From Candidatus Woesearchaeota archaeon (GTDB lineage: Archaea; Nanobdellota; Nanobdellia; Pacearchaeales; GW2011-AR1), in assembly GCA_964358765.1 (NCBI GenBank), contig CAYHPN010000005.1, positions 13 through 64,012 on the forward strand: a stretch of DNA of 64,000 bases. Reading direction: 5' to 3'. The translations under genes were made by a program, and so were the position numbers. Positions 26,261 to 46,857 of the stretch are shown one piece after another. How positions within the stretch are numbered: position 1 is the stretch's first letter; every line of letters starts with the position of its first letter. The notes beneath the pieces were generated by a model. It was not told the origin of the DNA, ran no database searches, and saw nothing but the letters and a program-made list of their open reading frames with translations.

Positions 26261-26746
26261 ATGTATATGGGAAGAGATAAAAATAATCCGAGTATCGTCT
26301 ACATAAACTATCAAATAAGAAGTAATGGGAAAAAGATTAACATATTTGATAGAGTTAATCAGATAAAAAAGGACATCAAAGTATTGCTTCCAGAAATTGA
26401 GGACGATAAGTTAATCTCAATGTTCTCTCACATGAGAAGATATTACGAGGGTAAATTACATTATGGAAGAAGAACAAATCCAGAAAATTGGGATAAGAAA
26501 CAAGATTTAACCGAAGCTGAAAAATTAATCTATGACTATCTTCTAAAGAATAAATTGAATCCTTCTACAACTTATAGGTGGATGTTAACTTGCAGAGTGC
26601 CAGCAGACATCAAAAGCAAGCTCATAGAAGGCAGATTATCTTACAAGAAGGCTCTTCAGATAGCCTCAAATAGAAAGAGAGTAAGAGAAAGCAATACTGG
26701 GCTTTTAATGATGGAAGAAATAAACAACATCGTGAGGAGTTTATAA
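26261..26746 (+). CDS. conserved element protein (integrase-associated, unknown function)
   Basis: Homologous to 37378-37878 (shared IFD(R/K)VN(Q/E)IK, LNPSTTYRW, GL(L/I)MMEEI). The stop overlaps the integrase start (TAATG). Confidence 0.7.
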   Translation: MYMGRDKNNPSIVYINYQIRSNGKKINIFDRVNQIKKDIKVLLPEIEDDKLISMFSHMRRYYEGKLHYGRRTNPENWDKKQDLTEAEKLIYDYLLKNKLNPSTTYRWMLTCRVPADIKSKLIEGRLSYKKALQIASNRKRVRESNTGLLMMEEINNIVRSL

Positions 26747-27630
26747 TGGGAAATAAAAACAAACTGCCAGATAAATTAAGAAAAGAACAAATGGTGAAAT
26801 TATTTGAGGTGATGTATTTACCTAAATGTTCCATAGGTTGTTTTACTGCTTTAATGTGTGGATTACGAGTTAGAGAAGTTTGCAGACTTGAAACCTCAGA
26901 CATGAATTTAGAGGCAAGAGAAATCAAAGTAAGGGATAGTAAAAATCCCAACAGAAAGAAGCAACATGATTACGGCAAAGATAGAATTGTTCCAATTCCA
27001 GAAATAGCAGTCTCTCCGATAAAGAAATGGTTGGATGTTATTCAAGGTGGAAAATGGTTTTTGCCTTCAATGAAAAGCCCAGACATGCACCTAAGACCTA
27101 AAACATTGCATGAATGGTTTAGAGAAGCAAGGAAAAGAGCGGGTCTTGATGAAGTTGAATATGTTGTGAAATATAATAAGAAAACAAAGTATAGGGAATC
27201 AAGCCCAGTTTACAAATATAGATTTCATCATTTCAGGCATTTCTATGCTCAATATGTTTATGACCATACCAGAGACCTGTATGCTGTATCAAAGTTACTT
27301 GGGCACAACCAAATAACGACGACAGAAATTTATGCAAGGATGTCAGATAAAACAATGAAAGAAAGTGTTGACTTTAGTTTCAATAATCCAATAAGAACCA
27401 AAATCTTTGAGGATAATCCAGTTAATGCCTTGAATTATAAAATTCCTACAATCGCAAGACAAAGGGAGAAATCTCCGATAGAAATCCTTGAAGAAAGATT
27501 TGCCAGAGGCGAAATCTCCGACATAGACTTCCAGAATAAGCTGAGGCTTCTAAAGCTCAGAAAAGATTATCTGAAGGATAAGGATACTGAAGAGCTAAAG
27601 GAAAAAGAGATTGAAAATAGAGAAAATTGA
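26746..27630 (+). CDS. tyrosine recombinase/integrase
   Basis: Catalytic signature: GLRVREVCRLE (Arg I), HHFRHFYAQ (HxxR), LLGHNQITTTEIYARM (His...Tyr). Confidence 0.88.
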   Translation: MGNKNKLPDKLRKEQMVKLFEVMYLPKCSIGCFTALMCGLRVREVCRLETSDMNLEAREIKVRDSKNPNRKKQHDYGKDRIVPIPEIAVSPIKKWLDVIQGGKWFLPSMKSPDMHLRPKTLHEWFREARKRAGLDEVEYVVKYNKKTKYRESSPVYKYRFHHFRHFYAQYVYDHTRDLYAVSKLLGHNQITTTEIYARMSDKTMKESVDFSFNNPIRTKIFEDNPVNALNYKIPTIARQREKSPIEILEERFARGEISDIDFQNKLRLLKLRKDYLKDKDTEELKEKEIENREN

Positions 27631-30536: not shown

Positions 30537-31823
30537 CTATTGTTTTAGCTTATCTTTAAATTTTTCCTTAAACCAATTATCAAGGTAAGGATAATATTTC
30601 TTTTGGATATTCTTTGGTAGTTTAAAGAAATCTCCATAAACGATTTTTCGGCATTTTTTACTTCCACATAAACATTTCATTTCCCAACTATCAATTCCAT
30701 TAACAGAGTAATCAGAAGTAATTTCTTCTCCCTTTTTTATATCTCTCAAAGCTATATCGGTTTTATTGCGAACATAAGTATTTGGGTCACAAGAATGATT
30801 AACATATCTTTCAGGTTCTCGCATTACCATATAATTACCTTTTCCATCAGGAGTTGTATGATTTCTTTCATCTTCGGGAAGGCTTTTCATTTCTTCTTCA
30901 CTAACTATTTTCTTAGGATGCCAAACATTTACAGTCTCGCCTTTCTTTATATCTTTTAGAGCAAAAACCCCTTTTCTATCAATGCCTGAGCTTTTTACTT
31001 CTATTGCTGAATCCATACTATTCTCAGTTTTAGGGGTTATATAAAATGAACTTTTCTTATCCCAACCATACCAAATTAAATAAATCGTTCTTGAAAACCC
31101 CCATAAAACTACCCCCGCTGATAAAAAGATAAAAAAGAGCTTAGTTATTCTATGAAATAAATTAGGTTCAAGATAAACTTCGCCATTTGGATAAAATATC
31201 ATTGTTTTTGCATTCTGGAGACTCCAATTTGTTAAACAAGAATGGCACATATACTCTTTTCCATTAATTATGCAGGGTTCACCAATAGATTCATTTGCAG
31301 TATCTGGAAGACATTCGCTTTTATCAACTAACCCCCCACTTTCCATTTCAGGTAGAGTAAAGGTAAAACCATAAGAAAGTTGGAAGGTTATCTTATCTAC
31401 CCCATCTGGAATATTAACACATTTCTTTCGAGTAATATTAAAAGATTCTCCATTATTAAAACTTGCAGAAAAAGTCTGATTGTTTGTAAAATTTGTTTTC
31501 TCAAAGCAGAGTTTATCTCTACCTCCCCCTAAATATATAATTTTCCAAAAGAGAGTATTAATATTTCCTGAGCTTAAATCTTCTTGAGTTAAATCAAAAA
31601 CACCCAGACCTATGTAAGTAGTATTATCAGATTCTATTTTCTGGAGATTGTCTGAAGGTATTTTTAAATCTGGAATCAAATAAAAATTGACCCATAAGGC
31701 TACGATTAAAATTGCTAAAAACCTTATAACTCTTCCTCTCTTTTGATAAAAGTCTTTAGTCATTTTAACAAAATTCTTCAAACTACCGTAAATATTTTTC
31801 ACTGAAATTGAAAGTTTATTCAT
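30537..31823 (-). CDS. membrane-anchored SET-domain protein (putative lysine methyltransferase)
   Basis: C-terminal SET motifs: GIDRKGVFALKDIKKGE, NHSCDPN, ALRDIKKGEEITSDY, and post-SET-like CLCGSKKC. Two TM helices (ILIVALWVNFYLI; LFFIFLSAGVVLWGF) flank a ~170-aa Cys-containing domain. Confidence 0.75.
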   Translation of the reverse strand: MNKLSISVKNIYGSLKNFVKMTKDFYQKRGRVIRFLAILIVALWVNFYLIPDLKIPSDNLQKIESDNTTYIGLGVFDLTQEDLSSGNINTLFWKIIYLGGGRDKLCFEKTNFTNNQTFSASFNNGESFNITRKKCVNIPDGVDKITFQLSYGFTFTLPEMESGGLVDKSECLPDTANESIGEPCIINGKEYMCHSCLTNWSLQNAKTMIFYPNGEVYLEPNLFHRITKLFFIFLSAGVVLWGFSRTIYLIWYGWDKKSSFYITPKTENSMDSAIEVKSSGIDRKGVFALKDIKKGETVNVWHPKKIVSEEEMKSLPEDERNHTTPDGKGNYMVMREPERYVNHSCDPNTYVRNKTDIALRDIKKGEEITSDYSVNGIDSWEMKCLCGSKKCRKIVYGDFFKLPKNIQKKYYPYLDNWFKEKFKDKLKQ

Positions 31824-31924
31824 AAAATAAGTAAGATTAGGATAATTTTAAGCATTTGCATACCCTCCATGCAAGTATCTCTTATTGAATAGATTATTAT
31901 TACTATTATTTCATCTGAGCGTCC

Positions 31925-32361
31925 TAATGGGTTAGGGGTGTCTGCTTTTTTGAATGTTTTCGAACTACCAAAATAATTCCCAATATCATGGGTATTGTTG
32001 GATTAATTCCTGCTGTGCATGTGTGTCTGCGTGTTAGCAGACAGGAGAGAGCCGAGAAAAAAATTCTCATCTTTGACGCTCTCCTCACCTTATCGAGGCT
32101 ATTTATAGAGGAGAACTAACAGTTTAAACCCCTTGCCCTATTCAACAAGAGACCTCTTTCTGAAAGCTGTCTGCCCCCAGTGTCTAATAAGTTGACCTCT
32201 GGAGGAAAAATAATATTTTGTCGAATGTAAATTCAGTTTTCTAAATCAAAATTGAAACAGGGTCAATGTCTGAAAATCTTCAGACAGGGAAAGTAGACAG
32301 CGATAGAGTATCCTCAAAGTGCGATACAAATCTTTTATACAAGAGGGACTAAAAGAATGGA
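31925..32361 (+). promoter_or_regulatory. conserved non-coding region with TGTCT(G/A) iterons, a hairpin and a TATA-like box
   Basis: Block-wise conserved with 39275-39731. Forward TGTCT(G/A) at 31939, 32024, 32168, 32181 and 32267. Reverse AGACA at 32037-32044, 32281-32287 and 32294-32300. Hairpin GTCTGC(32025)/GCAGAC(32037). ctatttatagagg with tttata at 32102-32107. Confidence 0.6.
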
Positions 32362-32853
32362 ATGGTAAAGACTTATGGAGCAGTAGATAGAAGACATAGA
32401 AAGAGAAGAAGTGATGCTGGAAGAAAGAGAAGAAGTTATAGGGGCAAACCTGTTAAAAAGAAAAGAGATATTCTCTGGCAAAAAAGAATCGGAGATAAAC
32501 AAACATTAAAACTATGGGTCTGGGAAAAGGGAACAATGTCTCGGGATGGAAGAAGTAAATGGAATAGAAGAATCAGACCTTTCATCAAACCAATAGTCTA
32601 CAGATTCAGAATGAGAATTGATGCTGATATTTCTTACCTAACTACTAAAGAAAAGATTGAACAATTCCTTTTAGATATAATTGAATATGATGGCGAGTTT
32701 CTTCTTATGGGTTTCAGCAATGCAAAAAATAGGTTTCATACTAAGCCAGTAAAAATTTGTAGAGTTGTTATATTCAATTCGAGAGAAGGACTTAGAGCCA
32801 GAATGATTCAAGATTACAGACTATGGAGATACTGGTTTTACAAAGGAGATTAA
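32362..32853 (+). CDS. conserved basic protein coupled to the serine recombinase (unknown function)
   Basis: Homologous to 39741-40226 (shared LKLWVW(E/Q)K(G/E)TMS, GRSKWNR, RPFIK, RMRIDA, SYLTTK, MGFSNA, KPVKICR, MIQDYRLWRYWFY). It ends 1 nt before the recombinase start. Confidence 0.7.
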   Translation: MVKTYGAVDRRHRKRRSDAGRKRRSYRGKPVKKKRDILWQKRIGDKQTLKLWVWEKGTMSRDGRSKWNRRIRPFIKPIVYRFRMRIDADISYLTTKEKIEQFLLDIIEYDGEFLLMGFSNAKNRFHTKPVKICRVVIFNSREGLRARMIQDYRLWRYWFYKGD

Positions 32854-32854
32854 A

Positions 32855-33613
32855 ATGGAATCTAAAACAAATTCACAAAGTGCAGTAGCTTATATTAGAT
32901 TATCTTCTGATGATAGTTCTAACCCTTCACTATCCCCTCAAAACCAACAAGACATTATAAGGAATCATGCAGAAGCCAAAGGACTAAACATAATTCAAAT
33001 ATATGAAGACATAAACAAGACTGGCTCTAACATCTTCAGAAAGGGGCTTGAACAATTAATGAAAGATGCAAGAGAAGGAAAATTCAATACAGTATTTATT
33101 AAGGACTGGTCAAGGCTCTCTCGAAACATCATAGACCAAGAAACAATAATCAAAGAGCTAAACAATCTCAAAATAGAAATAATCTCTTGCGATGGTATTG
33201 AAGACAAGAAAGCAAGACAGGTGACAGGACTAACAAATGAATGGTTTATTGATGAGTGCAAAAAGAAACAGCAACAAGTTCATAAGTTAAAACTGGAAGC
33301 AAAAATCCCTTGCTCCAGAGCCCCGTATGGATACTCTATGAGTAAGAAGCTAAAGAAATTTATCGTGAATCAAGAAGAAGCTCAGGATGTAAAAAAGATA
33401 TTTGAATTAAGAAGTGAAGGAAAATCAATCAGTGAAATAGCCCGAGAGTTTAAGATGTCTCCCAGTAAAGTTTTTGGAATACTAAGGAACAAGACTTATC
33501 TTGGTTTTATAAAATACAAGTCCGAATTAATTCAAGCCCATGAACCTATAATAACTGAAGAGATGTTCAGCAGGGTGAATAATAATTCAGTTTATTCATC
33601 TGGAAAAAAATAA
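32855..33613 (+). CDS. small serine recombinase (resolvase/invertase-type)
   Basis: Catalytic N-terminus AVAYIRLSSDDSSNPSLSPQNQ. HTH GKSISEIAREFKMSPSKVFGILRN. Long identical stretches with 40219-40962 (QIYEDINKTGSNIFRKGLEQLMKDA). Confidence 0.82.
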   Translation: MESKTNSQSAVAYIRLSSDDSSNPSLSPQNQQDIIRNHAEAKGLNIIQIYEDINKTGSNIFRKGLEQLMKDAREGKFNTVFIKDWSRLSRNIIDQETIIKELNNLKIEIISCDGIEDKKARQVTGLTNEWFIDECKKKQQQVHKLKLEAKIPCSRAPYGYSMSKKLKKFIVNQEEAQDVKKIFELRSEGKSISEIAREFKMSPSKVFGILRNKTYLGFIKYKSELIQAHEPIITEEMFSRVNNNSVYSSGKK

Positions 33614-37377: not shown

Positions 37378-37878
37378 ATGGAAATGTCATACGATAGAAT
37401 AGGAAACACTCGGATAAGAGAAAGATGCGTTAGAGATGGTAAGATAGTTGGACGAAAAAGAAGTATCTTTGACAAGGTAAATGAGATTAAAAGTGATATT
37501 AAAGCATCTATACCCGAAATTAACGATGATAAGCTCATACCTCTACTGAGCAAGATAAGGACTTATTACTGCAATAAAAAGAAAGGCGTGCCACTGGGTA
37601 GAAGGGGGCAAAAAGGATTTAGAAGCCTAACTCAAGTTGAAACTCTGGTCTTTGATTATATGTTGAAGAATAACCTCAATCCCAGCACAACCTATAGATG
37701 GTTTATTGCTACACGATTACCTCAGGACATAAGAGAGAAGCTGGCAAAGGGGCAGATAGGGCAAAGAAAGGCAATGGAAATCTCAGCAAACAGGAGACGC
37801 ACTAAAAACAGCGTCAATGGTTTAATCATGATGGAAGAAATAAGAAACATAATCCAGAAGCTGGATTGGAGCGGATAA
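37378..37878 (+). CDS. conserved element protein (homologue of 26261-26746)
   Basis: See 26261-26746. Strong AAGGAGG upstream (37368-37374). Confidence 0.7.
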   Translation: MEMSYDRIGNTRIRERCVRDGKIVGRKRSIFDKVNEIKSDIKASIPEINDDKLIPLLSKIRTYYCNKKKGVPLGRRGQKGFRSLTQVETLVFDYMLKNNLNPSTTYRWFIATRLPQDIREKLAKGQIGQRKAMEISANRRRTKNSVNGLIMMEEIRNIIQKLDWSG

Positions 37879-37879
37879 A

Positions 37880-38128
37880 ATGAAAAAAACAGAAATAAAC
37901 TCTCCTCGAGACATGATTACTTTTTTATGGTCAAAGAATGAAAGAGCCAATAAACAAATTCGCAAGTTAATACATCATACGGATGAAGTAAGAAAAATGG
38001 GATTCGAATTGTTTGATGAGAATACTAAAAAATATTATAGACGTCTGGTGGTTGATATGATTTGCTCAATAGAAAAGGCAAAACAGGAAATTCTTAAAAT
38101 TAAAGGGGAGCTTGATGGAGGAAAATAA
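37880..38128 (+). CDS. hypothetical small protein
   Basis: ORF track (82 aa), tightly packed between two element genes. Confidence 0.45.
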   Translation: MKKTEINSPRDMITFLWSKNERANKQIRKLIHHTDEVRKMGFELFDENTKKYYRRLVVDMICSIEKAKQEILKIKGELDGGK

Positions 38129-39236
38129 AATGGACAATATAAACACAAACAAAGATACAAACAAAATAATCGAAGAAATCAATAAGGTATTGAATAAACA
38201 AAGAATGCACTATAAAGAGATTTATGAACAATTAATCTCGGAAAAAGTTATTCCGCCTAATTCAGAAAAGGAGTTCAAAAATCTTTATGCATGGGCTTTA
38301 GAAATGGGATATATTGATAAGATGAGAATAAAAAACTGGGGCAAGAAAAGAGGAAAGCTCCCAAAGTATTTTACTAAGAAACAATTAATCCAAATATTTG
38401 ATGTTGCAGATAGACCTAAAGATGCGATTGCTTTTTTTCTTGCATTAATGTGTGGTTTGAGAATAAATGAAATCTGCACCCTAAAAATAAGGAATATTGA
38501 TTTTGAGAATCATAGACTCTTTATAGGGGACAGTAAAAATCCAAATAGGTCAAGAGATAATTATGGAAAAGATAGATATGTTGATTTTGACCCAGCAATA
38601 GAAGGAGTATTAAAGAAGTGGATTGAAATAATCGGAAACAGCAGTGAATGGTTTTTACCTTCAGATAAAAGTCCAGATATGCATTTAAGAAATAAATCTT
38701 TGCATGAAAGATTAAGATTATACCTAAAGGAAGCAGGGATTCTTCAAATAGATTATACAATGAAAGTTTCTCAAAGAGTAAGAGGAAAGAGAATCATAAA
38801 AACAGTGAACAGATACACAAGATATTTTCATTGCTTCAGACACACAATGGCTTGCATAATTTATAATAAAACTGGAGATATTTATGTTGTGAATAGATTT
38901 TTAGGACATAATCAATTAGATACGACCGCAGTTTATGCAAAAGTGATAGACACAAAGATGAAAACATCAATCGCAAGTGTATTTAATTCGCTTCATTATA
39001 ACTTTCATAATGGAGAGCATTTGCCAAATCCAAACCCCATCAAGAGCACCCTAACACAGTCATCTCCAGTAGTGGAAACTGTAGCCAACAGCCCGTTAGA
39101 TTTGTTAGGACTTCAGCTTGTTAATAATGAAATAAGTCAAGAAGAATATGTTAGAAAAAGAAAGCTTCTGGAGTCTGAAGGCTATAAACAAATCATTGAA
39201 ATAAAAGACTCAAGTGAAAATGAAAGGAAAAGATAA
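38115..39236 (+). CDS. tyrosine recombinase/integrase with N-terminal extension
   Basis: GLRINEICTLK, HCFRHTMACI, FLGHNQLDTTAVYAKV. The track start at 38112 is TTG, and the first ATG is at 38115. Confidence 0.86.
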   Translation: MEENKMDNINTNKDTNKIIEEINKVLNKQRMHYKEIYEQLISEKVIPPNSEKEFKNLYAWALEMGYIDKMRIKNWGKKRGKLPKYFTKKQLIQIFDVADRPKDAIAFFLALMCGLRINEICTLKIRNIDFENHRLFIGDSKNPNRSRDNYGKDRYVDFDPAIEGVLKKWIEIIGNSSEWFLPSDKSPDMHLRNKSLHERLRLYLKEAGILQIDYTMKVSQRVRGKRIIKTVNRYTRYFHCFRHTMACIIYNKTGDIYVVNRFLGHNQLDTTAVYAKVIDTKMKTSIASVFNSLHYNFHNGEHLPNPNPIKSTLTQSSPVVETVANSPLDLLGLQLVNNEISQEEYVRKRKLLESEGYKQIIEIKDSSENERKR

Positions 39237-39274
39237 GTAGCTCTTGATGAATATGCTTTTAATCCATCCTATTG

Positions 39275-39731
39275 ACTTGGTCTGCCTCAGGAAATGATGG
39301 GTGTCTGTATTTTAGATTGATTTTCAAATGGCAAATTAATTTTGAATAGGATGGGCATTGATTGATTTATTATTGCACTGCATGTGTGTCTGCGTGTAGG
39401 TAGACAGGAGAGAGCCGAGAAATAAATTCGTCATCTTTGATACTATCCTTACATTATCGACGCTATTTATAGAGGATAAACAACCTCCTTAGTATGATTA
39501 ACCCATTCAACAAGAGTCCTCTTTCTGAAAGCTGTCTACTCCCAATGTCTGGAAAAGATGACGACTGGAGGAAATATCATCTGATGGTTAAGTTTGTCGA
39601 ATGTAAAATTATCTGGCTAACTCGCCTTAGAGGAAAGTAGGGGGTGTCTAATAATTGGGAGGATTGGGAAGTAGACAAATTTTCTTCATTCCTAAAATCG
39701 CAATACAAGCCATATATACAAGGGGGTCTTT
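39275..39731 (+). promoter_or_regulatory. conserved non-coding iteron region (counterpart of 31925-32361)
   Basis: TGTCT(G/A) at 39302, 39387, 39533, 39546 and 39645. Reverse AGACA at 39401-39407 and 39672-39677. Hairpin GTCTGC(39388)/GTAGAC(39400), which keeps a G-T/U pair. tttata at 39466-39471. Confidence 0.6.
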
Positions 39732-39740
39732 TTGAATAGT

Positions 39741-40226
39741 ATGAAGACTGTTGGAGCAATTGATAAAAGGAAAAGAAGACAAAGAAGCGACTATGGAAAG
39801 AAGAGAGAGTTCTACAGAGGCAAACGTGTTAAAAAGAGAAGAGAAATAATCTGGAATAAAAAACAAGGACAGAAGGAAGTGTTGAAATTATGGGTGTGGC
39901 AAAAGGAAACAATGAGCCCCGAAGGGAGGTCTAAATGGAATAGGAAAGTTAGACCTTTCATTAAGAATATTGTTTACATCCCAAGAATGAGAATTGATGC
40001 CCATGTAAGTTATCTAACAACAAAGCAAAGTATAGAACAACTCTTTCTCGAAGTAATAGGTTACACTGGAGAGTTTTTAATTATGGGCTTCAGTAATGCA
40101 GGAAACAAATTCCATTGCAAACCTGTAAAGATTTGCAGAATTATTATTCACGAATCTAAAGAATGTCTTCGGAGCAGGATGATTCAAGATTACAGACTCT
40201 GGAGGTATTGGTTTTATCATGACTGA
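39741..40226 (+). CDS. conserved basic protein coupled to the serine recombinase
   Basis: The track start at 39732 is TTG. ATG 39741 gives MKTVGAIDKRKRRQRSD, parallel to MVKTYGAVDRRHRKRRSD of 32362. It overlaps the recombinase gene by 8 nt. Confidence 0.7.
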   Translation: MKTVGAIDKRKRRQRSDYGKKREFYRGKRVKKRREIIWNKKQGQKEVLKLWVWQKETMSPEGRSKWNRKVRPFIKNIVYIPRMRIDAHVSYLTTKQSIEQLFLEVIGYTGEFLIMGFSNAGNKFHCKPVKICRIIIHESKECLRSRMIQDYRLWRYWFYHD

Positions 40227-40962
40227 AAATGAATCTAAGATAATCAATGCAGTAGCCTATATTCGCTTATCTGCGGATGATAGTGCTAACCCTTCATTGT
40301 CTCCTCAAAACCAACAAGACATCATAAGGAGTCATGCAGAAGCTAAAGGATTAAAGATAGTTCAAATATATGAAGACATAAACAAGACAGGCTCAAATAT
40401 TTTTAGAAAGGGACTTGAGCAATTAATGAAAGATGCAAACTCCAAAAAATTCCAAGTTGTAATTTTTAAAGACTGGTCAAGAATCTCCAGAAGTATCGTA
40501 GACCAAGAGTCAATAGTAAAAGAATTGAACAGTATGGGGATTGAAGTAATTTCTTGTGATGGAGTCTCAGATAAAAAGATTAGGCAAGTAACGGGGCTTA
40601 CCAATGAATGGTTCATTGATGAGTGCAGGAGAAAACAACAGCAAGTTCACAAAATAAAGCTTGAAGCAAAAGTTCCATGTTCAAGACCCCCTTACGGATA
40701 TTCAATGAGCAAAAAACTAAAGCGTTTTGTTATTAATCCAGAAGAAGCTCAAGATGTTAAAAGAATCTTTGAATTAAGAAGTGAAGGAAAATCGATTAAC
40801 GAAATAGCCAAAGAGTATAAGATGTCTCCAAGTAAGATTTTTGGGATGCTTAAAAACCAAAGTTATCTGGGTTTCATAAAATACAAAACCGAACTAATCC
40901 CAGCCCATGAACTAATAATATCGCCAGAGCTTTTCAATAAACTGAATAATAATTCAGCCTAA
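40219..40962 (+). CDS. small serine recombinase
   Basis: AVAYIRLSADDSANPSLSPQNQ. HTH GKSINEIAKEYKMSPSKIFGMLKN. Confidence 0.82.
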   Translation: MTENESKIINAVAYIRLSADDSANPSLSPQNQQDIIRSHAEAKGLKIVQIYEDINKTGSNIFRKGLEQLMKDANSKKFQVVIFKDWSRISRSIVDQESIVKELNSMGIEVISCDGVSDKKIRQVTGLTNEWFIDECRRKQQQVHKIKLEAKVPCSRPPYGYSMSKKLKRFVINPEEAQDVKRIFELRSEGKSINEIAKEYKMSPSKIFGMLKNQSYLGFIKYKTELIPAHELIISPELFNKLNNNSA

Positions 40963-41147: not shown

Positions 41148-43892
41148 ATGGGATTAGAACTACACACACGAAATAATCTACTGGCAGATAAAGAAGAGGT
41201 TACATCGGATGAATATCTGGAAGTATACGGAAGTAGGATAGTCCAGGATAGCGAAAAATTGTTTTTGAAAGATTTTCTATTCCCTCTTCTTGGCAAGAAA
41301 GGGATGATTTATGTAATACCCCAATATCCATTTATTGATTCTGAGGGAAGATTAAGAAGAATTGATTTTGCGTTAATCAAAGACAACATAAAAATTGCTC
41401 TGGAAGTTAATGGAGAAACTTATCATGCTGAGGGAATAATTCCAAATGACATGTTCGATGATAACTTACAACGACAAAATGAGATATTAAATGCTGGATG
41501 GAATTTACAAAGATTTTCTTTCAATCAGTTACAAGATGACCGTTGGAGAAAAAGAGTCATGGATATGTTGCATAAAGTTGTCTCACGATATGCCCCAGAG
41601 ATAATTTCAGAAGATTCGATTAAACCTAATTATTTACAGGTTATGGCTTTAGAGGCACTTGATTTTTATCGAGAAAAAGGATGGAAAAAAGGTATTGTAG
41701 TTCTTCCTACAGGGACTGGAAAAACTTTTCTGTCTGCATTCGATGCTAAAAAGTTTGATGGTAGAGTATTGTTTATTGTCCATAGAATAGATATTTTAAG
41801 CCAGTCTAAGGATGCTTTTGAAAAAGTATGGGCACAAGCTAAACTGGGATTGCTAACAGGAGAGGTTAAAGAGCATCTTCATGATTCTAAAGTTTTATTC
41901 GCCTCTAAGGATAGCCTAAGAAATCCAGAATACCTCTCTTTATTTTCTCCGACAGAATTTGATTATATAATTATAGATGAGGTTCATCATGGACAAGCTC
42001 CCTCTTATCAGTCGATTATTAAACATTTTCAGCCAAGAAAATTCATTCTTGGGATGACGGCAACACCTGATAGGATGGATAGAAAAGATATATTTGAATT
42101 ATTTGATTACAATAAGGTTTTTGAGTATACTTTAAATGATGCTATTGAAAATGGATTCTTAGTTCCCTATACTTATTATGGTCTAAAGGATAATATAGAT
42201 TATTCCAAAATAAGATATAATGGTCTGAAATATAATGTGCAAGACTTGGACAAGTATCTCATTATAGAAAAAAGAAATGAGCAAATTCTGAAGGAATATA
42301 TTGAGAAAGGGGGAGGAAATAAAGCATTAGGTTTCTGTTGTTCTATTCATCATGCAAATAAAATGGCACAGTATTTTAATGAGCATGGGATTCCTGCTAT
42401 AGCAATAACTTCTGAAACAGAAAATAGGGAAGACAAGATTAAGGATTTTAGAGACAATAAATATGCAGTTGCTTTCACTGTAGACATATTTAACGAGGGA
42501 ATTGATTTTCCAGACCTAAGAGTTCTATTATTTATAAGACCTACAGAATCGAAGACGGTTTTTATGCAACAATTAGGTAGGGGACTAAGATTGTCTCCAG
42601 GAAAAGAGAGGGCAATTGTTTTAGATTTTATTACAAATTATAAAAAAGCTAATCAGATTAGAAAATATCTTTCTAAAAGAAGTAAAGAAAAAAAAGCCAC
42701 TTCAGGAAGAATAGAGAAGATTATTTACGAGTATGTTCCAAAATGTGAAGTTCATTTTGATTCAGAAGTAGAAGAAATATTAAATAGGCAAGATAAAGAT
42801 GAAAGAGAAATCTCAAAAGAAGACTTATTAGATTCGTATTATTCTCTCGCTGAAAAACTTGGAAGAAAACCAACACAAGAGGACATCAATGAGCAAGGGG
42901 AATTTAAGGTCTCAAAATATATCTCTATTTATGGCTCATGGATTAAGTTTCTTCGTGAAATTGGAGAGTTCACAGAAGCAAGTTATCATTATCCTCAAGG
43001 AGTCCATTTAGGACATATCTTCTATATACTAAAAACTCTGTCAGAAAATAAACGGGAGAAAACACACTTAGATGATTCATACATTAGAATTAGAGGTAAT
43101 CTCGGTTCAGATAGAGTAGGCACATTTCAAAGACAAACTAAATATAAATTGCAAGCTTTAATGGAAATGGGTCTCATAACGGATGATAGAACACTTAGCT
43201 CCGATGAAAAATATAATATAGAATTAACTCCTGAAGGGAAAGAGCTCTATAGAATTTTGAAACCTCTAATCGGAAAAGTTGATTTATCTTTCTCAAAAAA
43301 TGAAGGAGGAATACCTTCATGGGACATGAAATTAAATCCACAAGAATTTAATGTTGCACTCTGGAATTTTGTTCAATCAGATAAAACAAAAAAAGAATAT
43401 ATCCAAAGAGAAATATTAGAAATTCATGCAGTTTCGCAAATGTTAAACTATTTATATAAAATTGAAAGGCAAAAGACAATAAAAAAATCTTCTGTATATG
43501 AGGGATTTTTTAAAGCACCATTTGTTAAAATGTATTGTGACCAAAATGGCATAGATATTGCGACAGAGGAAGGGGCGAAACATAGATGTCCCTTTTTGTT
43601 GAATTTGCTGGAATCAATAGGAGTTTTATCTCAGACAAGAAGTGAAATTATTTTGTCGAAATTTTTAGTATGTAAACAGACTATGCAAATTTATTCCAAA
43701 GAAAGTGAGGGAAACATTAGTGATAGGATTCACAGAGTCGGCAAGATTCTGTCAGCAAAATCATCCGATAAATTAGACTCCGAAGAAGAATCATTACTCA
43801 AGGAGAATTTTGGGAAGTTATTCTTATCAGATAAATTTTATTTATCGGACTTTGAGATTTTAAATAATAGCGGTGATAAAAATGTCAAATAA
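41148..43892 (+). CDS. DUF559/Vsr-like endonuclease domain fused to an SF2 (type III restriction Res-like) helicase, with a ~350-aa C-terminal region
   Basis: Nuclease-like RRIDFAL...IALEVNGETYH...NAGWNLQRF. Helicase motifs I VLPTGTGKT, II IIDEVHH, III GMTATP, VI QQLGRGLR. 914 aa. Confidence 0.75.
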   Translation: MGLELHTRNNLLADKEEVTSDEYLEVYGSRIVQDSEKLFLKDFLFPLLGKKGMIYVIPQYPFIDSEGRLRRIDFALIKDNIKIALEVNGETYHAEGIIPNDMFDDNLQRQNEILNAGWNLQRFSFNQLQDDRWRKRVMDMLHKVVSRYAPEIISEDSIKPNYLQVMALEALDFYREKGWKKGIVVLPTGTGKTFLSAFDAKKFDGRVLFIVHRIDILSQSKDAFEKVWAQAKLGLLTGEVKEHLHDSKVLFASKDSLRNPEYLSLFSPTEFDYIIIDEVHHGQAPSYQSIIKHFQPRKFILGMTATPDRMDRKDIFELFDYNKVFEYTLNDAIENGFLVPYTYYGLKDNIDYSKIRYNGLKYNVQDLDKYLIIEKRNEQILKEYIEKGGGNKALGFCCSIHHANKMAQYFNEHGIPAIAITSETENREDKIKDFRDNKYAVAFTVDIFNEGIDFPDLRVLLFIRPTESKTVFMQQLGRGLRLSPGKERAIVLDFITNYKKANQIRKYLSKRSKEKKATSGRIEKIIYEYVPKCEVHFDSEVEEILNRQDKDEREISKEDLLDSYYSLAEKLGRKPTQEDINEQGEFKVSKYISIYGSWIKFLREIGEFTEASYHYPQGVHLGHIFYILKTLSENKREKTHLDDSYIRIRGNLGSDRVGTFQRQTKYKLQALMEMGLITDDRTLSSDEKYNIELTPEGKELYRILKPLIGKVDLSFSKNEGGIPSWDMKLNPQEFNVALWNFVQSDKTKKEYIQREILEIHAVSQMLNYLYKIERQKTIKKSSVYEGFFKAPFVKMYCDQNGIDIATEEGAKHRCPFLLNLLESIGVLSQTRSEIILSKFLVCKQTMQIYSKESEGNISDRIHRVGKILSAKSSDKLDSEEESLLKENFGKLFLSDKFYLSDFEILNNSGDKNVK

Positions 43893-44835
43893 ATCACATT
43901 TTAACGCAGGACATAGAGGCATGAATTTTTTGAAGAAAAAAGGGATAAAACATAGTTCTAATATTGATTTCGTAATTCCTGAAAAAACTTATCATGGATT
44001 TTTTATTAAAGACTCTATACAGTTTTTAAAAACACTTCCAGACTCATCTGTGCAGTTGGTATTAATTGACCCCCCGTATAATTTAGATTTGGAGACGTGG
44101 GATACTTTTTCAGATTATTTAGATTGGGCAAAACAATGGATGGATGAAATATATCGAGTATTAAAAGATTCTGGAAGCTGTGTTATTTTTGGAGGATTTC
44201 AATACCAAGATTTAAAGAAAGGCGATTTATTAGAACTTTTACATTATGCTCGACATAAAACTAAACTAAGATTTACAAATTTAGTTATTTGGTATTATAA
44301 GAATGGTATGAGTGCACATAGATTTTTTGCTAATCGTCATGAAGAGGCAGTATGGTTGACAAAAACAAAACAATATTATTTTGATTTAGATTCAGTTAGA
44401 GCACCGTATTCGGAAGAAGCTAAAAAATCGGCACTTCGGGATAAAAGACTTGTTCCTGAAAATATTGAAAAAGGAAAAAATCCTACCAATGTCTGGGAGA
44501 TTGGTAGGTTAAATGGTAATTCTGTTGAAAGAGTTGGACACCCCACTCAAAAACCATTGGAGATTATAAGAAGATTTGTTAATAGCCTTTCTTATCCTGG
44601 CTCAATAGTATTGGATTTTTTTGCAGGTTCTGGAACAACAGGAAGAATTTGCATAGAAGAGGGTCGCCATAGCATACTTGTAGACAATGACCCCAAATCA
44701 TTAGATTTTTTCAATAAACATTTGAATAATATGAAATCGACAGGGGATATAAAGTCCCATGAGGTTTTTATCAATCCAGATTTAAATGATTTATTAAAAA
44801 AATTGGAAGAAAAAGAAAGTATCCAAAAGAATTAA
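43882..44835 (+). CDS. DNA methyltransferase, beta-class (N6-adenine or N4-cytosine)
   Basis: Catalytic motif IV LIDPPYNL precedes AdoMet motif I VLDFFAGSGTTG. The track start at 43873 is GTG and the first ATG is at 43882. It overlaps the upstream gene. Confidence 0.82.
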   Translation: MSNKSHFNAGHRGMNFLKKKGIKHSSNIDFVIPEKTYHGFFIKDSIQFLKTLPDSSVQLVLIDPPYNLDLETWDTFSDYLDWAKQWMDEIYRVLKDSGSCVIFGGFQYQDLKKGDLLELLHYARHKTKLRFTNLVIWYYKNGMSAHRFFANRHEEAVWLTKTKQYYFDLDSVRAPYSEEAKKSALRDKRLVPENIEKGKNPTNVWEIGRLNGNSVERVGHPTQKPLEIIRRFVNSLSYPGSIVLDFFAGSGTTGRICIEEGRHSILVDNDPKSLDFFNKHLNNMKSTGDIKSHEVFINPDLNDLLKKLEEKESIQKN

Positions 44836-44841
44836 TAAACA

Positions 44842-45528
44842 ATGATAAAACAAAAAGAAGTGGCAATCGAACAGAAAGGTTATAAGTTATCACCATCAAC
44901 ATTGAACTTAATGCATGAGTGTCCTCGATGTTTTTGGTTATCTGAACATGATGTATGGAAAAGACCAAACGGAATATTCCCCTCGCTTCCTTCTGGGATG
45001 GATGGTGTTTTAAAAAAACATTTTGATAAGTTTATGGAAAAAGGAAAACTTCCTCCCGAGTTATGTGATAATTCTGAATGTAAAAACCTTAAACTATTTG
45101 ATGATAAGGAGCTCTTGAAAGAATGGAGAAACTCCAGAAAAGGATTATGGTTTGAAGATAAAGAAGGGAATATTTTACATGGAGGAATTGATAATCTGAT
45201 GGTCAATAAGACTAATGGTAAATTTATTGTCCTTGACTACAAAACAAGGGGATTTCCATTAAAAGAAGATACACATGAACACTATCAAAGTCAGCTTAAT
45301 ATCTATGTTTGGCTTCTTGAGAAGTTAGGACATAAGACTGAAAACTTTGCATATTTGTTATTTTATCATCCTAAAGAAGTGTTAGAGACTGGAGAAGTTG
45401 TTTTTAATACAGATTTAAAGAAAATGAAAATCTCGCCTGAAGATGCAGAAAAGCTTTTCAATAATGCAATTAAAATGCTTAATGAAGACTGCCCAAAAAA
45501 ATCATGCTGTTGGTGTGAGAAGGTATAA
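44842..45528 (+). CDS. PD-(D/E)XK nuclease, Cas4/RecB-like, with Cys cluster
   Basis: N-terminal CPRCFW. Core GIDNL...VLDYKT. QSQLNIYVWLL (QxxxY). C-terminal CPKKSCCWC. Confidence 0.65.
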   Translation: MIKQKEVAIEQKGYKLSPSTLNLMHECPRCFWLSEHDVWKRPNGIFPSLPSGMDGVLKKHFDKFMEKGKLPPELCDNSECKNLKLFDDKELLKEWRNSRKGLWFEDKEGNILHGGIDNLMVNKTNGKFIVLDYKTRGFPLKEDTHEHYQSQLNIYVWLLEKLGHKTENFAYLLFYHPKEVLETGEVVFNTDLKKMKISPEDAEKLFNNAIKMLNEDCPKKSCCWCEKV

Positions 45529-45591
45529 AATGGAGTCTACCTCAAAATGCAATTCCGATAATTCTAAAAAGTTCGCTATAATGGGGTTAAT

Positions 45592-46158
45592 ATGTTAGGA
45601 GACATATATTTAGGAACTGCACTTGCTATTTTTTTAGCAATCTTTGGATGGAGCGAAAGTATTTTTGGTTTATCTCAGAGAACAAAAGAAAAGGAAGCAG
45701 ATTTCATTAGAAAATCAAAACTGACATTCGAGAAATACCTTGAATTGAAAAAGCTTATTTCTGCAACACAAAAACTTGGGCAGGCAGAATATACAAAGAA
45801 ACTCGCAAGTATCCTTAAAGGAACGCATATCGGGGCAGGTGACAAGGGCACATTCGATAAACTAAGGGAAAATAGTTTAACTCTTACTCAATGGGATAAA
45901 CAAAATAAAAACAAAAAGACCGTATTAAGTGGATTGTTTATCTATCTCTTTATAGCTGGAACAGTCATGCTACTTTTTGAAAATAATGTAACACCTTTTT
46001 TTGAGATGAGCTTGGAGTCATGGATGATAATCTTTCAATCTATACTCTTCATAATTATCATAGTTGGAGCGTTAATATTCAACAAAATAAGGAAATTTGA
46101 GATTGAGATACAGTCAAATTTGAACTATCTCATATTGAGGATTCCCTCAGGGGAGTAA
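45592..46158 (+). CDS. three-TM membrane protein with a ~100-aa soluble loop
   Basis: TM helices LGTALAIFLAIFGW, LSGLFIYLFIAGTVMLLF and MIIFQSILFIIIIVGALIF. No family recognised. Confidence 0.55.
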   Translation: MLGDIYLGTALAIFLAIFGWSESIFGLSQRTKEKEADFIRKSKLTFEKYLELKKLISATQKLGQAEYTKKLASILKGTHIGAGDKGTFDKLRENSLTLTQWDKQNKNKKTVLSGLFIYLFIAGTVMLLFENNVTPFFEMSLESWMIIFQSILFIIIIVGALIFNKIRKFEIEIQSNLNYLILRIPSGE

Positions 46159-46159
46159 T

Positions 46160-46525: not shown

Positions 46526-46857
46526 GCTCTCCATCTATCTCTAATGTCAGAACCGTTTATATCGAATGGCATGTGGATATTGTAATGGATTTAATAGACC
46601 AGATATTAAAATCACCTCAGTTAATTTCTGGCACAAATCAGATTAATCCGAATGATGCCACACATATTAAAAAGAATCAAAAGAAAATTGCCACAGTCGC
46701 ATTAGAAAAGGAAGCGGATTATCTAATTAAAAAATATAAGATTACCGACACAGATGAGCTGTTTAAAGTTATTGGAGATTTATCCTCTAAAAAGATTGAG
46801 ACTCTCAGAAGAAAATGTATTGATGAAGCAATAAAGGAACTCGCAAAAAATGGCTAA
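46522..46857 (+). CDS. hypothetical protein
   Basis: ORF track (111 aa). It is coupled by overlaps on both sides. Confidence 0.5.
   Translation: MSSPSISNVRTVYIEWHVDIVMDLIDQILKSPQLISGTNQINPNDATHIKKNQKKIATVALEKEADYLIKKYKITDTDELFKVIGDLSSKKIETLRRKCIDEAIKELAKNG

What the first reader, a model, noticed from the sequence alone, without database searches (positions are those of the whole stretch)
31925..32361. Conserved ~430-bp non-coding region with eight TGTCT(G/A)/AGACA iterons, a hairpin and a TATA-like box (second copy 39275-39731)
Seen: the two elements share block-wise conserved non-coding sequence, for example tgcatgtgtgtctgcgtgt..agacaggagagagccgagaaa, ttatcga.gctatttatagagga, attcaacaagag.cctctttctgaaagctgtct and ttgtcgaatgtaaa. 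The 6-mer TGTCT(G/A) or its complement recurs 8 times in element 1 and 7-8 times in element 2, in the same order. The inverted pair GTCTGC/GCAGAC (32025/32037) becomes GTCTGC/GTAGAC in element 2. That still allows a G-U pair on a plus-strand RNA. Inference: candidates are an iteron-type replication origin, the recombination or regulatory site of the adjacent serine recombinase, or a structured leader/ncRNA starting after the TATA box (32102-32107), about 230 nt before the ATG.
Basis: partly seen in the sequence, partly recalled or inferred. Interest (0 to 1): 0.65.

Follow-up and report, generated by a model that had tools for sequence, protein, structure and literature searches.

The report
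Repeat-studded control DNA of a recombinase module
The conserved ~430-bp stretch is real non-coding DNA that sits in front of a two-gene module (an unknown basic protein plus a small serine recombinase) in mobile elements of tiny DPANN archaea. It carries short protein-binding repeats at fixed positions, so it is most likely the module's docking and control site, not a structured RNA.

Summary
Two copies (31925-32361 and 39275-39731) share long blocks found nowhere else in the window. They carry 8 and 7 TGTCT(G/A)/AGACA motifs in the same order, against about 0.3 expected. The region is non-coding: substitutions show no codon periodicity, although relatives have called ORFs there. It is as conserved as the neighbouring genes.

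About 20 related loci from DPANN archaea all have a 350-470-nt region directly upstream of the same pair of genes (basic protein, then serine recombinase). In relatives the repeated motif is TGG(N)TA, not TGTCT. It sits in the same four clusters with the same spacings (about 90, 140 and 100 nt), and its orientation can flip. That pattern fits binding sites on double-stranded DNA that co-evolve with an element-encoded protein.

No conserved RNA structure was found. A better TATA-like box lies 25 nt before each ATG.

Best reading: a multi-site operator and recombination site (res/att-like) of the module. An origin of replication and a translocase recognition locus remain rivals. Which protein binds the repeats, and what the region does, are untested.

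The parts
31878..31892 (+). Left edge of the repeated 1.73-kb module. It is also the left arm (TCTCTTATTGAATAG) of a 15-nt inverted repeat whose partner is at 32138-32152.
   Evidence: Homology between element 1 and element 2/L001 begins here. Inverted repeat I2 is 93% complementary. The same pair is recognisable in element 2 (39240-39254 / 39503-39517) and in L001, by eye.
31939..31944 (+). Repeat cluster S1: a single TGTCTG.
   Evidence: Relatives have a (T/C)GGNTA at the equivalent place, 85-97 nt before S2.
32024..32043 (.).
   Evidence: Relatives carry a tandem direct pair (TGGyTATGGATA) at this position, not a palindrome. The hairpin is not kept across the family.
32039..32066 (+). The most conserved block, AGACAGGAGAGAGCCGAGAAAAAAATTC. 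It lines up with G(C)TGGGGAAAAA in relatives.
   Evidence: Exact 21-mer shared by both copies only. Three-way identity is 0.82. Family alignment.
32097..32111 (+). It is conserved only within the window clade.
   Evidence: Identical in element 1, element 2 and L001. It aligns with TTTACCGnCGGTAAA-type palindromes in relatives.
32138..32152 (-). Right arm (CTATTCAACAAGAGA) of the 15-nt inverted repeat.
   Evidence: I2. It is part of the 32-nt block shared by both copies.
32168..32186 (+). Repeat cluster S3: two direct repeats, TGTCTG and TGTCTA, 13 nt apart.
   Evidence: Relatives have TTTAATGG(A/T)TA here, 136-147 nt after S2.
32189..32209 (+). AAGTTGACCTCTGGAGGAAAA. This block is conserved across the whole family (consensus AAAAAGTTsACyCTwGGGGnAAAT).
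   Evidence: Family alignments.
32217..32231 (+). TTTGTCGAATGTAAA, a block specific to the window clade.
   Evidence: D11.
32267..32299 (.). Repeat cluster S4: the 20-bp palindrome TGTCTG-AAAATCTT-CAGACA, followed by TAGACA 13 nt further on.
   Evidence: Relatives have one TGGNTA here and a second copy about 20 nt downstream, direct or inverted, flanking a TATA-like box.
32333..32340 (+). TATA-like box TTTTATAC, centred 25 nt before the ATG. It is the predicted promoter of the basic-protein/recombinase operon, giving a leaderless or near-leaderless mRNA.
   Evidence: Sequence. Equivalent boxes in element 2 (ATATATAC, 39712-39719) and L001, and AT-rich boxes at about -20 to -30 in relatives. 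The promoter function is inferred, not shown.
32362..32853 (+). Gene for the 163-aa basic protein: an Arg/Lys-rich disordered N-terminal tail and a beta-rich core. No known family or fold.
   Evidence: Strong codon periodicity.
32855..33613 (+). Gene for the 252-aa serine recombinase: catalytic domain plus 'Recombinase' domain with HTH, and no zinc-ribbon or coiled-coil domain. Its stop is the right edge of the module.
   Evidence: Pfam PF00239 and PF07508. phrog_95 integrase. PDB matches to TnpX, TP901-1 and A118 integrase. Catalytic residues invariant. Homology ends at the stop.
39240..39740 (+). Second copy of the non-coding region. Repeats at 39302, 39387/39401, 39533/39546, 39645 and 39672; TATA-like box at 39712-39719. 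It lies directly after the stop of a tyrosine integrase gene (38112-39236).
39741..40226 (+). Second copy of the basic-protein gene (161 aa from the ATG at 39741).
   Evidence: (P0003).
40219..40962 (+). Second copy of the serine recombinase gene (247 aa).

Best explanation
The region is a cis-acting, double-stranded DNA control region that belongs to a portable three-part module: non-coding region, basic-protein gene and mini serine-recombinase gene.

**Proposed mechanism.**
- Four clusters of a 5-6-bp motif are spaced about 85-97, 136-147 and 92-112 nt apart. The motif is TGTCT(G/A) in this clade and TGG(N)TA in relatives.
- These clusters are docking sites for a module-encoded DNA-binding protein. 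The candidates are the recombinase's C-terminal recombinase/HTH domain and the Arg-rich basic protein.
- Binding at these sites would assemble a higher-order nucleoprotein complex with two roles.
- First, it would control the operon promoter next to the last cluster (TATA-like box 25 nt before the ATG).
- Second, it would provide the res/att-like site at which the serine recombinase pairs and recombines two copies. That would resolve multimers or cointegrates of the element, or delete or excise the 7.4 kb between the two direct copies in this window.

**Shown:**
- the region is non-coding and under selection;
- the repeats are enriched;
- cluster positions and spacings are conserved while the motif changes in concert by clade and can flip strand;
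- the region is strictly linked to the two genes;
- no conserved RNA structure was found.

**Inferred:**
- which protein binds;
- that recombination happens here;
- that the promoter is regulated.
For: - **Repeat enrichment.** 8 and 7 copies against about 0.3 expected in the window. The clade-specific hexamer is also enriched in relatives (Poisson 1e-2 to 2e-7).
- **Conserved architecture.** The repeats fall in the same alignment columns in about 15 distinct sequences. Their spacings, measured without any alignment, agree: S1-S2 85-97, S2-S3 136-147, S3-S4 92-112 nt.
- **Concerted motif change.** The motif is TGTCT in element 1, element 2 and L001; TGGATA, TGGTTA, (T/C)GGCTA or TGGGTA elsewhere.
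- **Strand flips.** Orientation differs at given positions: the last site is direct in L015/17/19/23-26/28 and inverted in L005/07/10/20/22. S2 is a palindrome here but a tandem pair in relatives. This fits duplex-DNA recognition.
- **Promoter-proximal sites.** In relatives the last two sites flank a TATA-like box. In L032 the sequence is TGGTTGG-AATTTATAAAA-CCAACCA.
- **Linkage.** Every locus with enough sequence upstream of the basic-protein gene has the non-coding region directly there, except L021. A serine recombinase gene lies nearby in almost every locus where enough downstream sequence is held (L010 is the exception). This holds even where other neighbours are moved or absent.
- **Selection.** Conservation equals that of the flanking genes, with no coding signal.
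- **Recombinase looks active.** The catalytic residues are invariant.
Against: - No binding, recombination or transcription data exist. Public runs hold only ~5x contigs, with no junction between the two copies and no inverted form, and there are no RNA runs.
- The palindromes are 20 bp from outer edge to outer edge. That is shorter than the 26-28-bp crossover sites of resolvases and invertases (from general knowledge), and the array spans about 360 bp where a Tn3-type res spans about 120 bp.
- In the window clade the nearest repeat lies about 35-40 nt upstream of the proximal TATA box rather than overlapping it.
- Recognition-helix differences in the recombinase are fully confounded with phylogeny, so the binder is not identified.
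- A profile built from relatives finds element 2 only at E = 0.11 and finds only fragments of element 1. Deep homology of the non-coding region therefore rests on synteny and architecture.
Confidence: 0.5

Rival explanations
1. Replication origin of the mobile element. The repeats are iteron- or ORB-like sites for an initiator (the basic protein, or a host Orc1/Cdc6). The sites near the promoter autoregulate the initiator gene, as in iteron plasmids.
For: - Repeated short motifs lie next to a gene for a small, highly basic protein of unknown fold that is always linked to them.
- In relatives the sites embrace the gene's TATA-like box.
- AT-rich stretches separate the clusters.
- G-strings follow some repeats (CTGGGGAAAAA, CTAGGGG), loosely like archaeal ORB elements (the ORB comparison is from memory).
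Against: - The repeat cores are only 5-6 bp, irregularly spaced (13 to 144 nt) and of mixed orientation, unlike 17-22-bp regularly phased iterons.
- Read depth over the two elements is flat and equal to the flanks (~5x), so there is no sign of an actively replicating episome here.
- No AT-rich unwinding element stands out in a genome that is already 68% A+T.
- The basic protein matches no initiator family or fold.
- An origin does not explain the strict linkage to the recombinase.
Confidence: 0.2
2. Recognition locus for a DNA translocase (clt- or pac-like). In relatives, the HerA/FtsK-type ATPase encoded just upstream binds the repeats through its C-terminal HTH, to load onto the element for transfer or packaging. 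This is how Streptomyces TraB binds the 8-bp repeats of clt. The window copies would then be retained or re-purposed remnants.
For: - In most relatives the region lies directly after a ~550-aa gene. Its model (pLDDT 85.6) matches HerA hexameric translocases (Foldseek E 1e-11 to 1e-13) and ends in a long helix plus an HTH.
- TraB/clt precedent: PMC4447253.
- The window clade lacks this ATPase and is also the only clade with a different repeat (TGTCT).
Against: - The window and L001 have no homologue of the ATPase. Yet their non-coding region is as conserved as the coding genes.
- Where the ATPase gene is inverted (L005) or 3.3 kb away (L016), the region stays with the basic-protein gene.
- The HTH recognition helices of the ATPases do not track the repeat variant.
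Confidence: 0.12
3. Transcribed structured leader or non-coding RNA. It would possibly be bound by the Arg-rich basic protein and would regulate or guide the recombinase.
For: - A TATA-like box (TTTATAAAT and similar) is conserved in relatives about 25 nt before the first conserved block (AATAnCAtGG).
- In relatives nearly all repeats are on the plus strand.
- Element 1 folds better than shuffles (z -3.9).
- One stem change in element 2 and L001 gives G-U on the plus strand.
- The basic protein has an arginine-rich tail.
Against: - No family-wide consensus structure (alifold energy 0), and only weak ones in sub-clades.
- Element 2 has z +0.5. The minus strand of element 1 also scores (z -2.6), as expected from DNA palindromes.
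- Element-1 hairpins are not maintained (50.8% paired against 48.3% in shuffles; 74 of 500 shuffles as high).
- The TTTACCGnCGGTAAA palindrome loses pairs without compensation.
- The repeats flip strand between relatives.
- No Rfam match.
- The upstream TATA-like box is weak in the window clade.
Confidence: 0.07
4. Decayed small protein-coding gene. Relatives have called ORFs of 81-105 codons here, and element 1 reads as 80 codons with one in-frame TAA.
For: - Gene callers annotate ORFs of 81-83 aa in L007, L010 and L011.
- Open frames of 75-105 codons exist in L005, L012, L019, L020, L022 and L028.
- A shared 'F(N/S)K-LM...KKFT' peptide-like motif appears in one frame, and element 1 has a single stop in that frame.
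Against: - No third-codon-position excess in either clade (p 0.2-0.85), against p 1e-4 to 9e-9 in the adjacent gene.
- Close relatives differ by frameshifts and stops (L015/26 and L024/25 versus L019; element 2 and L001 versus element 1).
- The same conserved nucleotides are read in different frames in different members (KSLMD versus KFNGY).
- Peptide similarity is limited to the nucleotide-conserved blocks.
- The supposed start codon lies inside the repeat itself (ATGGCTATGGATA).
Confidence: 0.03

Closest known systems
res sites of Tn3/gamma-delta, Sin and beta-type serine resolvases
   Same: - A multi-site array for a serine recombinase lies just upstream of the recombinase operon.
- Short half-site motifs occur in inverted and direct pairs.
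- The sites are expected to double as an operator for the promoter.
- The whole unit is a portable module found in different elements.
   Different: - The array spans about 360 bp in four clusters, not about 120 bp in three sub-sites.
- The palindromes are 20 bp, not 25-34 bp.
- A second gene (the basic protein) sits between the sites and the recombinase gene.
- The recombinase has a large-serine-recombinase type 'Recombinase' domain rather than the short resolvase HTH.
- The hosts are archaea.
Arm-type site architecture of lambda-like attP (intasome)
   Same: Dispersed short repeats in both orientations over a few hundred bp suggest a wrapped nucleoprotein complex assembled with accessory proteins.
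   Different: - That system belongs to tyrosine integrases.
- Here the array follows the serine-recombinase pair even where no tyrosine integrase is present.
- The array is intact inside integrated elements, so it is not a split attP.
Iteron-type plasmid origins with autoregulated rep genes; archaeal ORB origins
   Same: Repeated motifs lie beside a small gene. In relatives, repeat copies bracket that gene's promoter.
   Different: - The motif cores are 5-6 bp, with irregular spacing and mixed orientation.
- No recognisable initiator is encoded.
- No copy-number signal is seen.
Streptomyces TraB / clt (FtsK-like translocase binding 8-bp repeats); FtsK-KOPS-XerCD/dif
   Same: In relatives, a HerA/FtsK-superfamily translocase with a C-terminal HTH is encoded immediately before a repeat-bearing non-coding locus. 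That locus is followed by a site-specific recombinase (PMC4447253).
   Different: - The translocase is absent from the window and from L001.
- The fold match is to HerA, not to FtsK/TraB specifically.
- The repeats are not simple direct 8-mers.
Large serine recombinases with a recombination directionality factor (phiC31, Bxb1, SPbeta SprA/SprB, A118)
   Same: - The recombinase shares the catalytic and 'Recombinase' domains.
- It is encoded with a small partner protein, with adjacent or overlapping stop and start codons, as some RDF-integrase pairs are.
   Different: - The zinc-ribbon and coiled-coil domains that define att-site choice and directionality are missing.
- Large-serine-recombinase att sites are simple ~40-50-bp sites without accessory repeats.

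Membership tests
Tn3/Sin-type res site | Lies immediately upstream of the serine recombinase gene and overlaps its promoter. | tested here: inconclusive
   It lies upstream of the operon, but the basic-protein gene intervenes. Repeats flank the TATA-like box in relatives. In the window clade they lie about 35-40 nt upstream of it.
Tn3/Sin-type res site | Two or three sub-sites, each an inverted pair of ~12-bp half-sites, within about 90-120 bp. | tested here: not met
   There are four clusters over about 360 bp: two 20-bp palindromes, one direct pair, and single sites.
Tn3/Sin-type res site | Bound and recombined by the adjacent resolvase, with crossover at a central dinucleotide. | not testable with these tools
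   No biochemical data are available. Contigs at ~5x show no recombinant junction.
Iteron-type replication origin | Three or more direct repeats of about 17-22 bp at regular, helically phased spacing. | tested here: not met
   The cores are 5-6 bp. Spacings are 85, 14, 130, 13, 86, 14 and 13 nt. Five repeats are on the plus strand and three on the minus strand.
Iteron-type replication origin | An adjacent gene encodes the initiator that binds the repeats. | tested here: inconclusive
   The adjacent 163-aa protein has no Pfam, PHROG, PDB or BFVD match. Binding was not tested.
Iteron-type replication origin | An AT-rich unwinding element, or a copy-number or skew signature. | tested here: inconclusive
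   The genome is 68% A+T. There is no outstanding AT block, depth is flat, and there is no skew switch at the site.
Structured cis-regulatory RNA / ncRNA | A conserved secondary structure supported by compensatory changes. | tested here: not met
   Alifold finds no consensus. Pair counts do not exceed the shuffled or slid controls. Element 2 has z +0.5.
Structured cis-regulatory RNA / ncRNA | Membership of a described RNA family. | tested here: not met
   Rfam 15 gives no match at the gathering threshold or at E <= 1, apart from a chance 16-bit SCARNA7 hit.
Structured cis-regulatory RNA / ncRNA | A discrete transcript with a defined 5' end. | not testable with these tools
   No RNA runs hold the sequence.
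Protein-coding gene (small ORF) | An open frame kept among relatives, with third-position-biased substitutions. | tested here: not met
   Frames are broken in close relatives. There is no periodicity.
Large-serine-recombinase attP | A simple ~40-50-bp imperfect palindrome, used by a recombinase that has zinc-ribbon and coiled-coil domains, and split on integration. | tested here: not met
   The recombinase lacks those domains. The region is intact inside what appear to be integrated elements.
clt-like locus of an FtsK/HerA-type translocase | An adjacent translocase gene with a C-terminal DNA-recognition domain. | tested here: not met
   Met in relatives. The translocase is absent from the window and from L001.

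The most novel reading that the evidence does not exclude
The module is a new kind of serine-recombinase system in which a novel-fold, arginine-rich partner protein is an obligatory third component. In the boldest version, the ~330-nt conserved region is transcribed from the upstream TATA-like box. The partner protein would bind the repeated UGGNUA/UGUCU elements of that RNA, forming a ribonucleoprotein that directs or gates the recombinase, loosely analogous to bridge-RNA recombinases. The evidence argues against a conserved fold, but it does not exclude an unstructured protein-binding RNA, because transcription could not be examined.
Probability: 0.07. Interest if true: 0.9.

Novelty: new variant of a known kind. 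Interest (0 to 1): 0.5.

Why it matters
Almost nothing is known about how mobile elements of DPANN archaea (Pacearchaeota, Woesearchaeota, Nanoarchaeota) integrate, resolve, replicate or move.

This work defines a compact, recurrent module:
- a repeat-bearing control region;
- a basic protein of unknown fold;
- a truncated large-type serine recombinase.

The module occurs in two copies in this window and in about 20 further loci. In those it often lies next to a HerA/FtsK-like translocase.

The concerted switch of the repeat motif between clades, at fixed positions, amounts to a natural specificity-swap experiment. It makes the protein-DNA pairing directly testable.

If the recombinase works on these sites with its partner protein, it would be a small serine recombinase system, possibly orthogonal to known ones, with a defined multi-site target. 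It would also be a first handle on the genetics of DPANN mobile elements. If the region is instead an origin or a transfer locus, it would be the first such element described for these organisms.

Tried and rejected
- **Small-ORF or pseudogene reading.** I followed this seriously, because relatives have called 81-83-aa genes here and element 1 reads as 80 codons with one stop. I rejected it on codon periodicity and on frameshifts among close relatives.
- **Structured RNA.** Tested with single-sequence z-scores, alifold on the family and on four sub-clades, explicit pair counting, and Rfam. None gave support.
- **Invertible promoter switch** between the 15-nt inverted repeats 31878-31892 and 32138-32152. 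All of about 20 family members are colinear, and no strand-switch joint appears in the contigs. It is not supported, but it is not excluded at 5x depth.
- **Recombination between the two copies.** Contigs from four groundwater runs show no trustworthy junction. The listed joints have only 21-31-nt anchors.
- **The 1.73-kb module as an insertion sequence.** The 11-nt direct repeat AGTTTATTCAT at 31813 and 33589 is within chance expectation for AT-rich DNA. No terminal inverted repeats were found.
- **att sites or tRNA-derived direct repeats for the larger elements.** None of 20 nt or more were found.
- **Circular episomal contigs among relatives.** None have terminal overlaps.
- **Further copies or half-copies of the region.** None were found in the window or in the fetched loci.
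- **Fold of the basic protein.** The model is confident (pLDDT 82), but it has no PDB or BFVD match.
- **Identifying the binder by co-variation.** Comparing the recombinase HTH or the ATPase HTH with the repeat type was uninformative or confounded with phylogeny.
- **Sequence-profile link between relatives and the window copies.** It is only marginal (E = 0.11).
- **Literature.** No description of this module was found. From memory, Tn3/gamma-delta resolvase half-sites read TGTCYNNTA. I could not verify this in the library, so it is only a lead.
Full report
**1. The observation**

The two copies align throughout, with 83% mean column identity (A1).

Two long blocks occur exactly twice in the 64-kb window, once in each copy. 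They are AGACAGGAGAGAGCCGAGAAA and TTCAACAAGAGnCCTCTTTCTGAAAGCTGTCT. Shuffled sequence gives none.

TGTCT(G/A) or its complement occurs 8 times in copy 1 and 7 times in copy 2:

| Copy | Motif positions and strand |
|---|---|
| 1 | 31939+, 32024+, 32038-, 32168+, 32181+, 32267+, 32281-, 32294- |
| 2 | 39302+, 39387+, 39401-, 39533+, 39546+, 39645+, 39672- |

The rest of the window has 0.68 per kb, so about 0.3 are expected per copy (Poisson 1e-9 and 4e-8). The GTCTGC/GCAGAC to GTCTGC/GTAGAC change and the TTTATA at 32102-32107 are also correct.

**2. What the repeated unit is**

Each copy is followed by a 161-163-aa, very basic protein gene (32362-32853; 39741-40226). Abutting or overlapping that gene is a 247-252-aa serine recombinase gene (32855-33613; 40219-40962).

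A sliding comparison included a third copy from a Pacearchaeota MAG (L001). Homology begins at about 31878 and stops at the recombinase stop codon, so the repeated unit is a 1.73-kb module.

Within the module, the non-coding part is as conserved as the genes. Three-way identity reaches 0.82 at 32023-32071.

The window appears to hold two neighbouring mobile elements. Each has its own tyrosine integrase with a ~165-aa partner: 26261-27630 and 37378-39236. L001 is syntenic with the second element at both ends but carries different cargo.

**3. Is it coding?**

This needed a real test. Gene callers place an 81-83-aa ORF in the corresponding region of several relatives. Copy 1 can be read as 80 codons with a single in-frame TAA, sharing a short peptide-like motif with those ORFs.

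The evidence is against coding:
- Close relatives differ by frameshifts and stops.
- The same conserved nucleotides are read in different frames in different members.
- Substitutions show no third-position excess in either of two clades (p 0.2-0.85). The neighbouring basic-protein gene shows it strongly (p 1e-4 to 9e-9).

The region is non-coding. The called ORFs are probably spurious.

**4. Relatives**

The basic protein has no Pfam or PHROG family. Its homologues come from DPANN archaea: Pacearchaeota, Woesearchaeota and Nanoarchaeota MAGs, and groundwater and lake metagenomes. None were found in the viral collection. A profile search finds 179 cluster representatives, many lacking the basic tail.

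I fetched 32 loci. Every locus with enough upstream sequence, except L021, has a 350-470-nt gap directly before the basic-protein gene. A serine recombinase gene lies nearby in almost every locus where enough downstream sequence is held; L010 is the exception.

Several blocks recur across the family:
- AATAnCAtGGg;
- a G-rich/A-run block (CTGGGGAAAAA, which is GCCGAGAAAAAAA in the window);
- AAAAAGTTsACyCTwGGGGnAAAT (AAGTTGACCTCTGGAGGAAAA in the window).

A caveat applies. A profile built only from relatives finds copy 2 colinearly at E = 0.11 and finds only fragments of copy 1. Deep homology of the non-coding DNA therefore rests on synteny and architecture, not on sequence statistics.

**5. 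The key result: the repeats keep their places but change their sequence**

In each relative the most over-represented hexamer is a variant of TGGNTA:

| Motif | Loci |
|---|---|
| TGGATA | L010, L017, L028 |
| TGGTTA | L007, L020, L027 |
| (T/C)GGCTA | L015, L019, L024, L031 |
| TGGGTA | L016 |

Enrichment over the rest of each locus gives Poisson values of 1e-2 to 2e-7.

These motifs fall in the same alignment columns as the window's TGTCT motifs. Their spacings, measured without any alignment, also agree between the window clade and the relatives:

| Interval | Spacing (nt) |
|---|---|
| S1 to S2 | 85-97 |
| S2 to S3 | 136-147 |
| S3 to S4 | 92-112 |

Orientation is not fixed. The last site is a direct copy in some relatives and an inverted copy in others. 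S2 is a 20-bp palindrome in the window clade but a tandem direct pair (TGGyTATGGATA) elsewhere.

Multi-copy motifs that change in concert, hold their positions and tolerate strand flips are the signature of duplex-DNA binding sites co-evolving with a cognate protein.

**6. The RNA hypothesis**

- RNAalifold finds no consensus structure for the family, and only weak ones for sub-clades.
- Copy 1 folds better than shuffles on both strands (z -3.9 and -2.6), as palindromic DNA would. Copy 2 does not (z +0.5).
- I counted the three best hairpins of copy 1 on a 15-sequence alignment. They are paired in 50.8% of cells, against 48.3% in shuffles (74 of 500 shuffles as high). They are no better than slid controls.
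- Rfam gives nothing.
Relatives have a TTTACCGnCGGTAAA-type palindrome there, and it loses pairs without compensation.
- A TATA-like box is centred about 25 nt before the ATG in both copies and in L001 (TTTTATAC at 32333-32340; ATATATAC at 39712-39719). Relatives have AT-rich boxes at -20 to -30, bracketed by the last two repeats. L032 reads TGGTTGG-AATTTATAAAA-CCAACCA. This predicts a leaderless or near-leaderless operon mRNA under repeat-mediated control. That is an inference.
- Relatives also keep a second TATA-like box about 25 nt before the first conserved block. Transcription through the region therefore cannot be excluded, and no RNA runs exist to test it.

**7. The proteins**

*Recombinase.* It has the catalytic domain and the 'Recombinase' domain with an HTH. 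It matches phage large serine integrases, TnpX, TP901-1 and A118 integrase over those parts only. It lacks the zinc-ribbon and coiled-coil domains. Its catalytic residues are invariant across 12 family members.

*Basic protein.* It gives a confident model (pLDDT 82): a disordered Arg/Lys-rich tail and a beta-rich core. It has no match in the PDB or BFVD.

*Upstream neighbour in relatives.* Outside the window clade, the region usually follows a conserved ~120-aa / ~180-aa / ~550-aa gene set. The 550-aa protein models confidently (pLDDT 85.6) as a HerA/FtsK-superfamily hexameric translocase, with a long helix and a C-terminal HTH.

That arrangement recalls Streptomyces TraB, which binds 8-bp repeats in clt (PMC4447253), and FtsK/KOPS/Xer. 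However:
- the translocase is absent from the window and from L001;
- where it is inverted (L005) or displaced (L016), the non-coding region stays with the basic-protein gene.

The region's constant partners are therefore the basic protein and the recombinase.

**8. Explanation**

The best-supported reading is a multi-site nucleoprotein assembly region of the module. Repeat clusters S1-S4 would be bound by a module protein, either the recombinase's DNA-binding domain or the basic protein. The assembled complex would control the adjacent promoter and serve as the res/att-like partner site for the recombinase. I give this about 0.5.

It is not a member of the Tn3-type res family: the array is too long, the palindromes are too short, and the recombinase is of a different type. 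It is not a classical iteron origin either: the cores are short, the spacing is irregular and the orientation is mixed.

| Rival | Confidence |
|---|---|
| Replication origin | 0.2 |
| Translocase recognition locus, re-purposed here | 0.12 |
| Protein-binding or structured RNA | 0.07 |
| Decayed ORF | 0.03 |

Public reads are too shallow (~5x contigs) to show recombination between the two copies, or inversion.

**9. Novelty and verdict**

I found no description of this module in the literature.

It is a new variant of a known kind: recombinase-associated multi-site control DNA. It occurs in a poorly known group of organisms, has an uncharacterised partner protein and shows a clear motif-specificity switch. 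It is interesting and testable, but the function is not demonstrated. Interest 0.5.

Noticed in passing
window 32880-33300 vs 40248-40670, and L001 6500-6900: The recombinase genes are mosaics. At 32880-33030 copy 1 is closest to copy 2 (0.86-0.90). At 33005-33130 it is closest to L001 (0.90-0.94). At 33155-33300 copy 2 and L001 are closest (0.84-0.94). This suggests gene conversion or recombination between module copies, including between the two copies in this genome.
   Followed up: partly
window 26261-27630 and 37378-39236: There are two pairs of a ~161-166-aa protein followed by a tyrosine integrase (49% and 37% identical to each other). The second pair is 96% and 83% identical to L001. 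This points to two adjacent integrated elements, each also carrying the serine-recombinase module. No att direct repeats of 20 nt or more were found.
   Followed up: partly
window 41148-48085: The cargo after the second module looks like a defence island:
- a 914-aa ResIII/helicase protein with an endonuclease-like N-terminus and an HNH-associated repeat;
- an N6/N4 DNA methylase;
- a PD-(D/E)XK nuclease;
- a 411-aa QueC-like protein.

L001 carries different cargo at the same place: NUDIX, 2',5' RNA ligase, PRK and LemA.
   Followed up: no
It has no Pfam, PHROG or PDB sequence match even at relaxed thresholds, so that label is unconfirmed. A homologue and its HTH neighbour (48082-48648) also flank the L001 element.
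   Followed up: partly
window 32362-32853; family of 179 cluster representatives: The basic protein gives a confident AlphaFold model (pLDDT 82, core above 90). It has no significant match in the PDB or in the viral structure library, so it may be a new fold. Many relatives are 120-140 aa and lack the Arg-rich tail.
   Followed up: partly
L010 1566-3233, L012 2658-4289, L031 8290-10092, L032 10001-11614 and others: A family of at least 72 ~550-aa proteins without annotation folds as a HerA-like hexameric translocase, with a ~70-residue helix, a C-terminal HTH and an acidic tail. It is encoded just before the non-coding region in most relatives. Its neighbours include 1,279-1,516-aa Laminin_G_3/beta-helix proteins and many small ORFs, so these may be viruses or transfer elements of DPANN archaea.
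   Followed up: partly
L007 761-1012, L010 3359-3604, L011 420-671: Public gene calls of 81-83 aa inside the conserved upstream region are probably false. Their 'start codons' lie inside the repeat (ATGGyTATGGATA), and the region shows no coding signal.
   Followed up: yes
L005 1404-6000 versus L010/L012/L020/L026; L020 3722-5016: The gene block with the HerA-like ATPase is inverted relative to the module in L005, L006 and L018. The recombinase gene is inverted relative to the basic-protein gene in L020. Rearrangements therefore have breakpoints at or next to the module.
   Followed up: no
window 30537-31823 (minus strand): This 428-aa protein has an N-terminal membrane or extracellular-looking half and a C-terminal SET domain. 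It is divergently placed 55 nt from the left edge of module copy 1.
   Followed up: no
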